This document shows positions 23,641 to 58,714 of a DNA stretch of 64,000 bases, piece by piece; position 1 is the stretch's first letter, and each line of letters begins with the position of its first letter. Both the position numbers and the translations under genes were made by a program. Location: the NCBI GenBank assembly GCA_964016885.1, contig OZ024740.1:100812001-100876000 (forward strand), in the 5' to 3' direction. The stretch is from Eledone cirrhosa. Taxonomy: Eukaryota. The notes below the pieces were generated by a model. The model worked only from the letters and a program-made list of their open reading frames with translations, did no database searches and was not told where the DNA came from.

Positions 23641-24690
23641 ATTAAAATAACAGATTAAAGTTTAAGCAAAGAATTGCTGCTTTCACCATTAACGGGATCT
23701 TCTGAAACTAACAAAGTCAATCTGTGAACGCAGGAGTGAATATTTCAAAAAACGTTGCAACCGGAGGAAGACAGGAAGACGATACTTTGCTTCGTGGAAA
23801 CGTTCCCTGGCAAATAACGGGGAAAAACGAATATAATACGTCATTATTTGGAGCGGTGAAAAACAATTACGCGCAAAGACAGAACCACGTTTATGGTATG
23901 AAAGAAGTTGTAGACTAATATTTTCTTAGGTGGTTCATAGAGATGTTCTCTGGCAATGAACGGAAAAAACGAAGATAATACGTCATATGTGGTGCGGGGA
24001 GAACAATTGCACGCAAAGACAAAACAAAGTAAATGGTATAACTGAAGTCGTAGACTAATATTCTATTAGGTGGTACATAGAGACGTTCTCTGGCAATAAT
24101 TTCAATAAACTCTGTATTTTATTTACTTTATTCTTAAGTCTGAAGCCGAGAATCATTCGGTTTCTTAGTTAGAATTTTAGTCTACCACTTCTGTTATACC
24201 ATTTACGTGGTTTTGTCTTTGCGTGCAATTGTTCTCCACCTCTACATATGACGTATTATCTTCGTTTTTTTTCGTTCATTGGCAGAGAACGTCTCTATGA
24301 ACCATCTAAGAGAATATTAGTCTACGATTTCTTTCATACCATAGACGTGTTTTTGTCTTTGCGTGTAATTGTTTTTCACCGCTCCAAATAATGACGTATT
24401 ATATTCATCTTTTCCCCTTCTTTGCCAGGGAACGTTTCCACGAACCAAAGTATCGTCTTCCTGTCTTCCTCCGGTTGAAAAGTTTTTTGAAATATTCACT
24501 TTTGCGTTCACAGATTGACTTTGTCAGTTTCAGAAGATCCCGTTAAGGGTGAAAGCAGCGTTTCTTTGCTTAAACTTTAATCTGTTATTTTAATAAATAT
24601 TTGCTCTACGGTTCTTATATATTTGATATATATTTATCCTTATCGAGCCATCTTTGGATTTTACTCTTCAAATTTATTATTATTACTATA
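23641..24690. mobile_element. Head-to-head fold-back of PLE 3' ends (family A, same as 47373-51180)
   Basis: Inverted arms at about 23641-24060 and 24175-24595; the right arm carries a ~95-nt extra tail; (TA)n on both sides. Confidence 0.85.
24526..24576 (+). ncRNA. Type I hammerhead, family A (CAGAAGA core); other copies 23659-23709(-), 41628-41678(-), 47399-47449(-), 51016-51066(+), 54264-54314(-)
   Basis: agttt-CAGAAGA-t-ccc(gttaa)ggg-t-GAAA-gca..tgc-TT-aaact. Confidence 0.7.
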
Positions 24691-25074
24691 TATATATGTG
24701 TGTGTGTGTGTATATATATATATATATATATATATATATATATATATATATATATATATATGTATATCTATAAATGTATATATATATATATGTATATATA
24801 TGTATATATACATATATATATATATATATGTATGTATATATATATAACGGAGGAAATGTGGTAAGGAACCAGGGGGACCATAACGCACCAAAGTACTCAA
24901 TACTTAGGGTAGTAGATATATATATATATGTACACAAAATTACACAAATATGACCCTTTCCAAGTATAACAATATATATATATATATATATATATATATA
25001 TATATATATATATATATATATATATATATATATATATATATATATATATATATATATATATATATATATATATA

Positions 25075-25712
25075 TAACGGCGATGAATTAGTTTTGCGAG
25101 GTTTTTATATGAAATCGTGTGTCGAAACAAATATTGTTATACTTGGGGAGGGTCATATTTGTGTAATATTGCCAGAATTAATAACAGAACACACTCACTG
25201 TTTGGTTGGTTTTCGCTTTTCGCTTCTGTGTCTTTATATCGGTAATCTAATTTATTCGGTCCACAATGTTGCCATTGACTGACCAACGGTCAAAAATAAT
25301 ACAGATACAATATAGACACAAACACATATATAGAGTTTATCAAAGTTCTTTCGTTGCACATCTGCAACATCGTCAGTGGTGCTATTGTTTCCTCCCGTTG
25401 CATTGTATTTTCTACGCCATCAAAAGATGGCGTAGAAAATACAATGCAACGGGAGGAAACAATAGCACCACTGACGATGCTGCAGATGTGCAACGAAAGA
25501 ACTTTGATAAACTCTATATATGTGTTTGTGTCTATATTGTATCTGTATTATTTTTGACCGTTGGTCAGTCAATGGCAACATTGTGGACCGAATAAATTAG
25601 ATTACCGATATAAAGACACAGAAGCGAAAAGCGAAAACCAACCAAACAGTGAGTGTGTTCTGTTATTAATTCTGGCAATATTACACAAATATGACCCTCC
25701 CAAGTATATCAA
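25075..25712. mobile_element. Near-perfect ~580-bp palindrome of PLE 3' ends (family B)
   Basis: Centre ctacgccatc-aaaa-gatggcgtag at 25412-25435; arms match those of 57350-58714. Confidence 0.9.
25468..25507 (+). ncRNA. Hammerhead-like core, family B; also 25340-25379(-), 35920-35960(-), about 57553-57590(-), 58472-58510(+)
   Basis: CTGACGA-t-stem II-GAAAgaactt; stem II covaries (gttgca/tgcaac vs gtcaca/tgtgac), but stem I is only 2 bp. Confidence 0.45.
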
Positions 25713-25874
25713 TATATGTATATATATGTATATATATATATATGTATATATATATATATATATATATATATATATATATATATATATGTATATATATGTA
25801 TATACATATATATATATATATGTATATATATGTGTATATATATGTATATATATGTATATATATATGTATATATA

Positions 25875-26245
25875 TAATATTATAATGAAATGACAGGAGG
25901 CTGGACTTGTGTACATCCTTCACTGGTTTATTATACTATGATCATTTCAATGACCGGGTTCCGTATGAATCCGGTGATATCATCAGGTATTCGAAATATA
26001 ATAAATGAATGTAATAGATCAAATCCAAGGGGCTGAAAAATCAAAGACCGGAGGACGACCGCCATCCACCATCTTCCACCTTTGCCGGTCGCCCTGAAGA
26101 GAGGTGGCTAAAGCTTATGGTGTGCTACTACCGGTCAAATAGAGGAAAACAGAAAGGGAGAGGAAGATAAGCAGCGTTAATATCATGCCACAAGAAAAAG
26201 GACAGAAAGAAGGGGGAAGAGAAGGAAGAAAAGGAAGAAGAAGAA
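25875..26245 (-). mobile_element. Solo arm of family C terminal repeat with hammerhead at 25933-25990
   Basis: Diverged copy of 26283-26650. Confidence 0.75.
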
Positions 26246-26282
26246 CAGTCAGTATGTATATATATATATATATATATATAAT

Positions 26283-55769: not shown

Positions 55770-56270
55770 TCAATACAGAGTTTTTCTTCTAACACATGTT
55801 TTTATTTTAGTCACCACATCTCTAGAGATGGAGATGTGGCCACTAAAATAGTAACATATCTGTCCTCCCTCTACTTGCTTTTTTATGCAGCTCTTAAATC
55901 TCTTGGGGAATACTAACTTTTTTAAATACATAATAACAGATTGTATATACACTATTCCTCTTGTTTCTGTTATTTTATTATGATTAATATTATTATTTTG
56001 ATTACATTTTACTCTGTGTTTGAAGAAAACATTTCTATTGAATCAAGGATTTAAGAATTTCTTTCTGTTATCTTAATTTGTTTTCATATGTTCTGTGGTA
56101 AAATTGCAACTTTTATTCTACCATTTAAAAGTCTCCTCACTATATTCCTATCTGTATAAACACTGGGCTTAAATCTTCTCAAGCACAATTTCTCTTCAAC
56201 AAACTCTATTTCATCTGATATATTATTATTTAAAAATATTTAGGAAGGAATATATATGTTATTTTTCTCA
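55770..56270 (-). pseudogene. Possible very decayed PLE RT thumb fragment
   Basis: Weak IPFLNI / SVY / FPKRFKSCIK-like remnants next to family H terminal pieces at 55604-55765. Confidence 0.3.
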
Positions 56271-57079
56271 GGTTTCATCATCATCGTTTAACGTCCATCT
56301 TCCACGCTAGGATGGGTTAGATGGGAGTTGTCCCAATTTGAGGCAAGGTTGGTTGGGTGACCATGTCTCGCTCATATAGGACTATCTGGCAGGTTTTCTA
56401 CAGCTGGATTCCCTTCCTAACACCAACCACATTTACAGTGTGGAACTGGGAACTTTTTACCGTGTTACCTACACGGCCACATTACAGCGTGGACTGTGTG
56501 TTTTTTTGTCGTGACACCTACACGATCTCAATCTCGATCTCGATCACATTAGCGCATTTATTTGGACTGGATGTTGTGGTACTAACTTTACAGAGAGAGG
56601 GTGGTGTTGGTGGGAGTGGGAGGATGGAGTAGTGGTAGTCGATTGGGGTATATATATATTTGTGTATGTGGGTGTATGTGTATATATAGTTAAAAGGTGA
56701 AGGAGAAAATGCACAGCAGTATATGTAAAGATCATTTTTTCTTTAAACAGAATGAATAATTTTGTAATTGTTGCATTAAATATAACTGGTTTAAATTGGT
56801 ATAACAATCTTAACTATTAGATATTAAATATCTTTTATAATGTTATTTCATGTATTCTGAGAGCAGTTCAAATATATGTGAGTTTTCTGTCAAACTTTCT
56901 TATATATATATATATATATGTGTGTGTGTGCGTGTATAAATCTACAGATATCTGTGTATTTGTACGTATTTGGTGCATTCTTATAAACACACACACATAT
57001 ACATATATATATATATATAGTTTTAATATAGATGAAATTCTATAGGACTAGAACTGTTTCATTCTTTAGAAATCATCAG

Positions 57080-57132
57080 GAGATTCCTGATGATTTCTAA
57101 AGAATGAAACAGTTCTAGTCCTGTAGAATCTC
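57080..57132 (+). ncRNA. Type I hammerhead, family H, in mini fold-back 57019-57215
   Basis: gagattc-CTGATGA-t-ttct..agaa-t-GAAA-cag..ctg-TA-gaatctc; stem I shows a compensatory change relative to 55401. Confidence 0.85.
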
Positions 57133-57319
57133 ATCTATATTAAAACCTTTATATTCTGCTATGTATTGAGTACCTTACTGTGGTTACCTCCAATTCAACC
57201 TGGAATAACTTACCTGTATATATATATATATAGTTAAATTTTAGACAGGAACAAAAACAGAGAGGCAGTACCATATATATATATATATATATATATATAT
57301 ATATGGTACTGCCTCTCTG

Positions 57320-58714
57320 TTTTTGATATGAAATCGTGTGTCGAAACAAATATTGTTATACTTGGGGAGGGTCATATTTGTGTAATAATATTGCCAGAAT
57401 TAATAACAGAACACTCACTGCTTGGTTGGTTTTCGCTTCTGTGTCTTTTATATCGGTTAATTTAATTTATTCGGTCTTCAATGTTACCATTGACTGACCA
57501 AAGGTCAAAAATGCAGATATAATATAGACACAAACACATATGTATAGTCTAACAAAGTTCTTTCATTCAACATCTGCAACATCGTAAGTGGTGCTATTAT
57601 GTTTCCTCCTGTTGTATTGAATGCCTACGCCATCTTTATTTAGTCTGTTTATTTATTTATTTATTTATTTAGGTTTTTTTTGTCTTCTCTGTGCAAAGTA
57701 GCTAACCAGTGTAGAAAGGCGCTGAGAAAGACCCACTTAAAGATTAAGGTGGTAGAAAATCCAGGAACCACCATAAAATCCCTGATCAGCAAAACCTACC
57801 CTTTTAAGAAAACCCACTGTACTAATAGGAAATGTATTATATGTAAAGTAAACCCCCGGATAAACTGTAAAACTAGAAACGTAGTCTATAGCATAAGATG
57901 TACAGAGGGTACCTGCAGAAACATGACAACAACATACATAGGCGAGACAGCTCGTAGCATAGGTGAAAGGATAGACCAACACTAGGGGGGAACTAAAAGG
58001 ACGAAAAAACGGTTCATTACTATACGAACATGCCAGACAACAACACGACCGTAACATAGACAACATAGAAATTAGAATAATATCTAAACATAGAAATGAC
58101 CCAGCAGATAGGCAAATCAGAGAGGCCAGTGAAATAGAACTTAGAAGGTCAAAGCTAAACAGAAAAAATTAATGGAATAACAACAACACCCAAACAAACA
58201 ATACTGACCTAAGAGAAGTATAAATAAATAAATAAATACATACACAAGTACAATAACAACAAACACATATAAACACACACTAGTAAACTAAGATAGAATA
58301 CAATATCCAATACACAGTCACCCAAATATGAACACACATCAAATACTATACACACACACAAACACATGCGCAGAGAAGACAAAAAAAAAACCAAATAAAT
58401 AAATAAATAAATAAACAGACTAAATAAAGATGGCGTAGGCATACAATACAACAGGAGGAAACATAATAGCACCACTGTCGATGTTGCAGATGTGCAACGA
58501 AAGAACTTTGTTAGACTATATATATGTGTTTGTGTCTATATTATATCTGTATTTTTGACCGTTGGTCAGTCAATGGTAACATTGAGTACCGAATAAATTA
58601 AATTAACCAATATAAAAGACACAGAAGCGAAAACCAAACCAAACAGTGAGTGTATTCTTTTATTAATTCTGGCAATATTATTACACAAATATGACCCTCC
58701 CCAAGTATAACAAT
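57320..58714 (+). mobile_element. 5'-truncated PLE (family B) with ~340-bp inverted arms around a GIY-YIG ORF fragment (57690-58172)
   Basis: CTNRKCIIC..CKTRNVVYSIRC..YIGETARSIGERIDQH; arms about 57350-57693 and 58367-58714. Confidence 0.88.

What the first reader, a model, noticed from the sequence alone, without database searches (positions are those of the whole stretch)
23641..58714. A shared rule: head-to-head fold-backs with one long and one short 3' end
Seen: insertions consist of two element 3' ends pointing outward, and one arm runs further than the other. Approximate offsets: 23641-24690 (95 nt), 25075-25712 (55), 26283-28800 (145), 28967-29158 and 29272-29465 (78), 31472-33112 (100), 41522-41750 (85), 42587-43385 (120), 45733-46036 (135), 47373-51180 (90), 57019-57215 (70); also 55340-55468, 55604-55765 and 57320-58714. 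Within a family the two end points recur in independent insertions and fall at AT-rich motifs. Only 33181-35556 looks symmetric. Known: PLEs show inverted pseudo-LTRs and a 3' tail extension. Inference: both target strands are primed at two fixed sites about 100 nt apart, or the RT copies back on its own cDNA and stops short. The non-coding elements obey the same rule, implying that PLE enzymes mobilise them.
Basis: partly seen in the sequence, partly recalled or inferred. Interest (0 to 1): 0.8.

Follow-up and report, generated by a model that had tools for sequence, protein, structure and literature searches.

The report
One-sided tails on Penelope-like insertions
These mirror-image insertions with one longer end are real and follow a published pattern of Penelope-like jumping genes, but their extra end is longer than reported and two protein-free, ribozyme-carrying repeats show the same footprint, which suggests they borrow the same enzyme.

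Summary
Of 16 two-armed, head-to-head insertions in 23.6-58.7 kb, 15 have one short and one long outer end and one (33181-35556) is symmetric (P = 2.6e-4 against independent ends; 11 of 12 firm cases, P = 0.003). Ends recur within families. In independent reads, family A's short end runs into (TA)n in 2280 of 20236 and 2448 of 19590 laid reads. The pattern is the published Penelope-like element (PLE) 'inverted pLTR plus one-sided tail' (PMC8557442, PMC3846280), tied in vitro to two reverse-transcription start sites (PMC11167929). Copy-back on the cDNA fails in 5 of 15 cases, where neither arm contains the other, so priming from both target strands is favoured. Most short 'non-coding' elements are truncated ends of coding Hydra- or Neptune-type PLEs. 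Only two families (E, 665-nt unit; G, 530-nt unit) look truly non-autonomous and retrozyme-like. Not found in the papers read: tails of 58-150 nt rather than 30-40, near-obligate long-short pairing, tail-only arms, and the PLE footprint on retrozyme-like units. About ten further pieces have only one arm.

The parts
23641..24687 (.). A1: family A fold-back; left arm (-) ends at the short site, right arm (+) carries the tail 24601-24687; hammerhead-like core at 24531
24848..24916 (-). C0: single piece of family C, tail only, ending at the long site
24935..24967 (+). B0: single piece of family B ending at the short site
25077..25720 (.). B1: family B fold-back, long end left (tail 25077-25131), short end right, symmetric centre at 25423, arms 99.3% identical
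25872..26260 (-). D0: single arm of family D ending at the short site
26283..28798 (.). D1: short-end arm 26283-26888 (-), unassigned 26889-27143, long-end arm 27144-28798 (+) with a duplicated 514-nt 5' part; tail 28655-28798; probably a PLE 3' UTR
28967..29155 (.). C1: family C mini fold-back, long end left, short end right
29203..29256 (-). B4: single piece of family B ending at the short site
29272..29464 (.). C2: family C mini fold-back, short end left, long end right
30669..31390 (-). J: partial tandem, period 435 nt, one hammerhead-like core per unit, no inverted arm
31472..33110 (.). E1: non-coding tandem unit of 665 nt with one hammerhead; short-end arm 31472-32168 (-), long-end arm 32164-33110 (+); both arms exceed one unit and the tail runs on into the next unit
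33181..35556 (.). F1: Hydra-type PLE remnant (endonuclease 34741-35217, -) with an inverted arm; both ends equal, 26 nt past the predicted ribozyme cut: the exception
35765..36739 (.). B3: short-end arm of a family B relative (-), 84-nt perfect palindrome 35995-36078, GIY-YIG fragment (+); no right end found
41526..41748 (.). A2: family A mini fold-back, long end left, short end right
41956..42466 (.). G0: older family G copy (79% to G1); main arm (+) ends at the short site; 15-nt inverted arm at 41956-41970 ends at the long site
42590..43383 (.). G1: non-coding tandem unit of 530 nt with one hammerhead per unit; short-end arm 42590-43315 (-); long-end arm 43314-43383 (+) made of tail only
43460..45641 (-). 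C3: 5'-truncated Hydra-type PLE (ORF 44694-45641) whose 3' end is family C, ending at the short site; no inverted arm
45801..46036 (.). H1: long-end arm 45801-45985 (-) with hammerhead-like motif, short-end arm 45978-46036 (+); single copy
47374..51172 (.). A3: Hydra-type PLE; short-end arm 47374-49861 (-) with broken RT/endonuclease ORF 48336-49861; long-end arm 49857-51172 (+), tail 51091-51172
54248..54360 (-). A4: single arm of family A ending at the short site
55342..55468 (.). I2: long-end arm 55342-55405 (-) made of tail only; short-end arm 55402-55468 (+) holding the hammerhead
55604..55765 (.). I3: decayed family I fold-back, short end left, long end right
57019..57213 (.). I1: family I mini fold-back, short end left, long end right, hammerhead at 57087
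57305..58716 (.). B2: long-end arm 57305-57637 (-, pLTR plus a partly divergent tail); short-end arm 57640-58716 (+) with GIY-YIG remnant, 3' UTR and pLTR

Best explanation
These are integration products of endonuclease-bearing Penelope-like retrotransposons (Hydra-type for families A, C, F; Neptune-like for B) that target (TA)n. The enzyme nicks both strands of the TA tract. Each 3' end primes reverse transcription at one of two fixed internal sites of the element RNA, both downstream of the hammerhead and 58-150 nt apart depending on family, helped by 3-6 nt of pairing between the TA primer and the RNA. The two cDNAs grow toward each other, stop at variable points and are joined head to head, so one arm carries the sequence between the two sites (the tail) and the other does not. 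Most short elements are 5'-truncated ends of coding PLEs; the tandem non-coding units E and G are retrozyme-like RNAs that carry the two sites and are copied in trans. Shown here: arms, recurring ends, pairing, non-nested arms, ORF type, ribozyme-like motifs. Taken from the literature: two-strand nicking, two start sites, predicted dimer. Inferred: one site per target strand in each event, primer pairing, mobilisation of E and G in trans.
For: 15 of 16 two-armed insertions long-short. Family A short end into (TA)n is the largest loose end shown in both raw-read runs (2280 of 20236, 2448 of 19590 laid reads), in 80 of 21295 contigs of X1 and 1 of 48 contigs of another organism; X1 summed depth falls to 0.55 across it and does not decline along the tail. 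Neither arm contains the other in 5 of 15 (A3, B2, G0, G1, I2), and three long-end arms are tail only. Reads show opposite-strand joints with one side at or inside the tail, e.g. 51065/51090 and 51027/51129. Arms of one insertion share diagnostic bases: 17 sites group by insertion, 1 across. ORFs carry the CxCx5C linker and the CxxC and CxH motifs that PMC8557442 gives for Hydra, a clade inserting into (TA)n; GIY-YIG hit for B3; PLE-like clusters at 0.93-0.97. PMC11167929: both strands cut and extended, two start sites bounding the tail, predicted dimer. E and G: no stop-free stretch above 72 codons, no tblastn match to the window's PLE proteins, one hammerhead per unit, arms longer than one unit.
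Against: F1 has two equal ends. About ten pieces show one arm only. In 5 of 15 (A2, B1, C1, C2, I1) both arms start at the same point and the short arm is nested in the long one, as copy-back predicts, and B3 has a perfect 84-nt palindrome at its junction. PMC11167929 saw no difference in start site between top and bottom strand and no homology between start site and cut DNA, so neither obligate pairing nor primer pairing comes from that work. Family A arms (93-95%) are no closer to each other than to other copies (92-95%), so the one-template signal rests on B and C. The long end of family A is hidden in the raw reads by a library cut at AATT (51161-51164) and is seen only in 3 listed contig pieces of X1 and 1 of X4. 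Short reads do not test pairing genome-wide; reduced-representation read counts are not locus counts; another element shares 51089-51139 and inflates tail depth. No autonomous partner was identified for E or G.
Confidence: 0.75

Rival explanations
1. Copy-back: one cDNA starts at the long site, folds back on itself, is copied outward, and the second strand is cut or stops at the short site (endonuclease resolution of the intermediate, as PMC8557442 suggests for the tail; self-priming as in PMC3846280).
For: Symmetric centres with nested arms in A2, B1, C1, C2, I1; nested arms also in H1 and E1; arms 96-100% identical in B1, C1, C2, D1, E1, I1; perfect palindrome at the B3 junction; palindromes at inverted junctions are published.
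Against: Cannot give A3, B2, G0, G1, I2, where the short-end arm holds up to 1.1 kb not in the long-end arm, or tail-only long arms. In vitro both tail boundaries are start sites of reverse transcription. It may still act locally at the junction.
Confidence: 0.15
2. Both arms were long at insertion and one tail was later lost by deletion between the TA flank and a TA-like patch in the element.
For: Short ends sit on 3-6 nt of TA-like sequence in 7 of 8 families; the flanks are unstable microsatellites.
Against: Independent losses would give long-long and short-short pairs: 0 and at most 1 of 16. Longer TA-like runs inside the family A tail (51106-51111, 51116-51123) are not among the outward loose ends shown (only 6 rows per run shown). 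Young copies with 98-100% identical arms are already asymmetric.
Confidence: 0.04
3. A ready-made asymmetric fold-back master is transcribed and copied whole, so the asymmetry is inherited, not made anew.
For: C1 and C2 fold at nearly the same point; B1, B2 and B3 share a 5' start.
Against: Centres differ among A1, A2, A3, among I1, I2, I3 and between G0 and G1; reads show at least 10 different opposite-strand joints for family A among the 15 joints shown.
Confidence: 0.06

Closest known systems
Inverted-pLTR insertions with a one-sided 'tail' in endonuclease-bearing PLEs (PMC8557442 Fig. 2; PMC3846280)
   Same: Head-to-head 5'-truncated inverted copy, extension at one end only, partial tandems, hammerhead near the 3' end, junction palindromes, microsatellite target.
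   Different: Tail 58-150 nt here against 30-40 bp (31 bp in rotifer Pen2a); those papers call it optional or often one-sided, here 15 of 16; tail-only arms are not mentioned in the passages read.
PAc (Poseidon of Anolis carolinensis) in vitro, PMC11167929
   Same: Two internal start sites bounding the tail, both target strands cut and extended, AT-rich target, sites downstream of the hammerhead.
   Different: Different clade; start site there is an AC-rich stem-loop without homology to the target, here ends overlap TA-like patches; pairing of sites within one event was not addressed in the parts read.
Hydra clade PLEs (PMC8557442, section 11)
   Same: CxCx5C linker, CxxC and CxH motifs near the endonuclease end, C-terminal endonuclease, (TA)n target, hammerheads (families A, C, F and the ORF at 40316-41425).
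   Different: Copies here are truncated or broken; RWK and DKT motifs not tested; no tree built.
Animal non-LTR retrozymes (PMC7229834; bioRxiv 10.64898/2026.07.22.740005)
   Same: Non-coding tandem units with one type I hammerhead each (E 665, G 530, J 435 nt; the preprint gives 51-972 bp); proposed to be moved by PLEs.
   Different: Here they lie as inverted long-short insertions in (TA)n; the cited work argues from co-occurrence and pLTR similarity, and 'inverted' does not occur in PMC7229834. Cleavage and circular RNA untested here.
LINE-1 twin priming (Ostertag and Kazazian 2001; model recalled, only the citation seen)
   Same: Second target strand primes internally on the RNA, giving a head-to-head inversion.
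   Different: In L1 (recalled) the second site is variable and the arms barely overlap; here both sites are fixed and arms often overlap by hundreds of bases.

Membership tests
Endonuclease-bearing Penelope-like elements | C-terminal GIY-YIG endonuclease after a PLE-type RT | tested here: met
   Pfam GIY-YIG above cut-off for B3 (E 6.6e-7), below cut-off for B2; no significant Pfam family for the four Hydra-type pieces, which align with each other and one of which is nearest to HTH_animal/GIY-YIG/RVT_1 clusters. No copy is full length.
Endonuclease-bearing Penelope-like elements | Inverted 5'-truncated copy forming pLTR-like repeats, with a tail at one end | tested here: met
   15 of 16 two-armed insertions.
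Endonuclease-bearing Penelope-like elements | Tail length 30-40 bp | tested here: not met
   58-150 nt in 8 families. A descriptive range in the cited papers, not a defining limit.
Endonuclease-bearing Penelope-like elements | Hammerhead motif in the pLTR | tested here: met
   Own descriptor: 15 cores, 14 in the region, against 0-3 in 20 shuffles; hits in A, E, F, G, I, J, K. The descriptor allowed any base at U4, chosen after seeing family A. B, C, D, H only by eye. No Rfam hammerhead among the 150 of 242 rows shown.
Endonuclease-bearing Penelope-like elements | Tail equals the sequence following the pLTR in the tandem (start of the next unit or ORF) | tested here: inconclusive
   Met for E and G; no 5' end of a coding family lies in the window.
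Hydra clade | CxCx5C linker; CxxC and CxH around conserved E and N; no CCHH | tested here: met
   Linker in 3 of 4 aligned pieces (the fourth is cut there), CxxC in 4 of 4, CxH in 3 of 4 (the fourth piece ends before it).
Hydra clade | RWK and DKT motifs; placement in the RT tree | not tested
   N-terminal parts absent or broken; no tree built.
Non-LTR retrozymes (families E, G, J) | Non-coding tandem unit with one type I hammerhead per unit | tested here: met
   Periods 665, 530, 435 nt; longest stop-free stretch 49, 59-72, 77 codons; hammerhead descriptor hits. Less than two full units per arm.
Non-LTR retrozymes (families E, G, J) | Self-cleavage and circular RNA monomers | not testable with these tools
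   Needs transcription assays or RNA data.
Twin-primed inversion | Both cDNAs primed on one RNA molecule | tested here: inconclusive
   Tail-only arms abutting the short site fit one RNA (I2, G1, read joint 51065/51090); long overlaps fit two RNAs, a tandem RNA or strand displacement.

The most novel reading that the evidence does not exclude
PLE integration is an obligately asymmetric twin-priming reaction: one enzyme dimer holds one RNA and assigns the two start sites to opposite target strands, with a family-specific spacer of up to 150 nt. Hammerhead retrozymes carry the same two-site signal, so their long-short inverted insertions are the direct footprint of mobilisation by PLEs, with a tandem or circular RNA as template.
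Probability: 0.35. Interest if true: 0.6.

Novelty: new variant of a known kind. Interest (0 to 1): 0.36.

Why it matters
The rule itself is known, so for annotation this is an ordinary PLE signature that explains why such insertions pass for MITE-like fold-backs. Two points go further. The steps after first-strand priming in PLEs are described as unvalidated (PMC11167929); near-obligate long-short pairing and tail-only arms make a sharp prediction (one start site per target strand) that the existing in vitro system could test. And mobilisation of animal retrozymes by PLEs has been argued from co-occurrence and sequence similarity; E and G offer an integration signature that can be counted in any long-read assembly.

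Tried and rejected
No whole genome is held for the window, so the genome-wide pairing count could not be run. Unmasked self-BLAST was swamped by (TA)n and repeated with masking. Rfam gave only sub-threshold microRNA-type hairpin matches, no hammerhead among the 150 of 242 rows shown. Pfam named none of the Hydra-type pieces. No RNA holder listed; this says nothing on expression. The read ends at 50860 and 51164 were rejected as element ends: both lie on AATT and look like library cuts. The loose ends at 51089 and 51139 belong to another element sharing 50 nt. One search anchored the family C short end and ribozyme cut at the wrong place; corrected. A rule that the long-end arm never reaches further 5' than the short-end arm was considered and rejected: same start in 5, short arm further in 6 (A3, B2, G0, G1, I2, I3), long arm further in 3 (D1, E1, H1), A1 unclear. 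No common fold among the eight tails. Hairpins at 12525, 13598, 15559 and 55796 are not PLE ends. Searches of earlier findings returned nothing. Literature searches listed no paper on strict pairing, tails over 40 bp or twin priming in PLEs; subscription papers and Repbase reports are outside the library, and Fig. S2 of PMC11167929, the supplementary figures of PMC8557442 and the supplements of the bioRxiv preprint were not seen and may bear on novelty.

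
Full report
Setting. The window is animal DNA rich in (TA)n. No whole genome is held. The host was not identified; a cephalopod is my guess from recall and no call tests it. Between 23.6 and 58.7 kb, TA tracts alternate with inserted elements, often nested.

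Observation. Self-BLAST after masking microsatellites lists all inverted pairs in the window. Aligning all arms of a family toward the outer end shows two end positions. A: four short, three long. C: three short, three long. I: three short, three long (I3 decayed). B: five short (a sixth at 18689), one long, one divergent long. D: two short, one long. G: two short, two long, readable because the tandem unit continues through both sites. E: one of each, also with a continuing unit. H: one copy. F: two equal ends. Offsets are A 87, B 58, C 80, D 150, E 98, G 116, H 72, I 70 nt. Pairing is long-short in 15 of 16 (P = 2.6e-4), 11 of 12 if D1, H1, B2 and I3 are set aside as weakly defined (P = 0.003), 10 of 11 if the adjacent C1 and C2 count once (P = 0.006). 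Limits: ten pieces have one arm only, B3 lacks a right end, and H's tail is probably half the stated length.

Independent data for family A. Reads and contigs of four coded runs were laid on 50770-51180. The largest loose end shown in both raw-read runs is at 51090, continuing as (TA)n: 2280 of 20236 and 2448 of 19590 laid reads; also 80 of 21295 contigs in X1 (12 more at 51085) and 1 of 48 in a second organism. Only six loose-end rows per run are shown; 1157 are hidden. X1's summed depth drops from 2.72 to 1.51 million across this site (0.55) and then reads 1.58, 1.71, 1.85, 2.06 million, so there is one step and no decay along the tail, as expected if about half of all arms are short. This depth is a rough measure, and another element sharing 51089-51139 adds to it. 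The long end is cut off in the raw reads at AATT (51161-51164) and is seen only in three listed X1 pieces and one X4 piece reaching 51179-51180. Ten of the 15 joints shown change strand, at different places, so junctions are made anew. In several, one side lies at or inside the tail (51086, 51090, 51105, 51129); the side lengths of 51065/51090 (26) and 51027/51129 (36) fit a tail-only long arm, which is my inference from the table. These reads do not test pairing.

What the elements are. A3, C3, F1 and the ORF at 40316-41425 encode related pieces (41-59% identical to the last) with a CxCx5C linker and CxxC and CxH motifs, the marks given for the Hydra clade, nearly all of whose families insert into (TA)n (PMC8557442 section 11). 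The nearest Atlas clusters carry HTH_animal, GIY-YIG and RVT_1. B3 has a Pfam GIY-YIG hit above cut-off and B2 one below it; I read these as Neptune-like from the cysteine linker, without a tree. A hammerhead descriptor finds 15 cores, 14 in the region, against 0-3 in 20 shuffles (U4 left free after seeing family A; Rfam listed none). The short end lies 17-62 nt past the predicted cut in A, C, D, G, H, I and 208 and 290 nt past it in B and E; F's ends lie 26 nt past it, so F1 is probably short-short. A1, A2, B1, C1 and C2 are therefore stubs of coding families; I's tail aligns with C's (best of 300 shuffles); D resembles a 3' UTR. E and G differ: units of 665 and 530 nt, one hammerhead each, no stop-free stretch above 72 codons, no tblastn match to six PLE pieces of the window, and the tail runs straight into the next unit. 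Their main arms exceed one unit, so the template was tandem or circular. J (435 nt) is similar but has no inverted arm.

Mechanism. Copy-back requires one arm to lie within the other. In A3 the short-end arm reaches about 1.1 kb further 5' than the long-end arm; in B2 about 790 nt; in I2, G1 and G0 the long-end arm is 64, about 70 and 15 nt of tail only. Five of 15 thus need two primings on an RNA template. Five others (A2, B1, C1, C2, I1) are symmetric at the centre and nested, which copy-back explains but so do two cDNAs running to one stop. Four-arm comparisons give 17 sites grouping by insertion and 1 across, so both arms come from one source; 15 of the 17 come from B and C, family A is uninformative, and later gene conversion is not excluded. 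Nine of 10 ends with known continuation overlap 3-6 nt of TA-like sequence, which suggests primer pairing but also underlies the deletion rival; that rival predicts long-long pairs, of which there are none. I put 0.75 on two fixed priming sites, one per target strand.

Comparison with print. PMC8557442 (passages, section 11, supplement word search) draws the inverted copy and a 30-40-bp tail often present at one end only. PMC3846280 (passages) reports a 31-bp tail, junction palindromes and mobilisation in trans between pLTRs. PMC11167929 (parts 1-2 of 4; supplement word search empty) shows both strands cut and extended and two start sites bounding the tail, with no strand difference in start site. 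PMC7229834 (passages) and bioRxiv 10.64898/2026.07.22.740005 (parts 1-3 of 5) propose that hammerhead tandem repeats are non-autonomous PLE derivatives. PMC13282606 (passages) has no occurrence of 'ribozyme'. L1 twin priming is recalled; I saw only its citation. Searches listed nothing on strict pairing, longer tails or this footprint on retrozymes, within a library that lacks most subscription papers. Earlier scan notes from other genomes read similar fold-backs as PLE stubs; they are unchecked and add no evidence.

Verdict. The feature is real and statistically sound within the window, and its core is known PLE biology. The longer tails, the tightness of pairing, tail-only arms and the same footprint on two retrozyme-like units are modest, testable additions. 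Interest 0.36; new variant of a known kind.

Noticed in passing
window 24531, 41673, 47444 (family A); 35463 (family F): The hammerhead-like core departs from the consensus at U4 in every family A copy aligned (A) and in F (C) while the three stems are kept; activity unknown.
   Followed up: partly
window 25424-25435, 57626-57637, 58425-58437, 36058-36070: Family B arms begin at or near a motif that resembles a YY1 site (recalled consensus); it may mark the transcription start and explain the symmetric centre of B1.
   Followed up: no
window 29387-29463, 57145-57213, 28655-28798: Tails of families C, I and D share an 8-nt motif; C and I tails align over about 50 nt. A candidate protein-binding signal between the two start sites.
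   Followed up: partly
window 57252-57325: A 20-nt inverted repeat flanks a TA run and includes the divergent long end of B2; origin unexplained.
   Followed up: no
window 30669-31390: Family J: 435-nt hammerhead tandem in TA flanks without an inverted arm; retrozyme-like.
   Followed up: partly
window 38281-38470 and 39769-39867: Family K: two minus-strand hammerhead-bearing ends, one seemingly long and one short; the second may be the 3' end of the Hydra-type ORF at 40316-41425.
   Followed up: partly
window 20689-21701 and 51271-51642: Further decayed PLE remnants (Hydra-type, minus; B3-like endonuclease, plus) without recognised ends.
   Followed up: partly
   Followed up: partly
window 51089-51139: 766-1064 reads per run carry this 50-nt piece of the family A tail inside a different sequence context: a captured tail fragment in another element or locus.
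   Followed up: no
window 16213-16546, 18194-18671, 22053-22497, 29670-30548, 47058-47356, 53333-53635, 56275-56530, 58781-59098: Many LINE-type 3' ends ending in (GAT)n next to TA tracts; one abuts the short end of A3 and replaces its TA flank.
   Followed up: no
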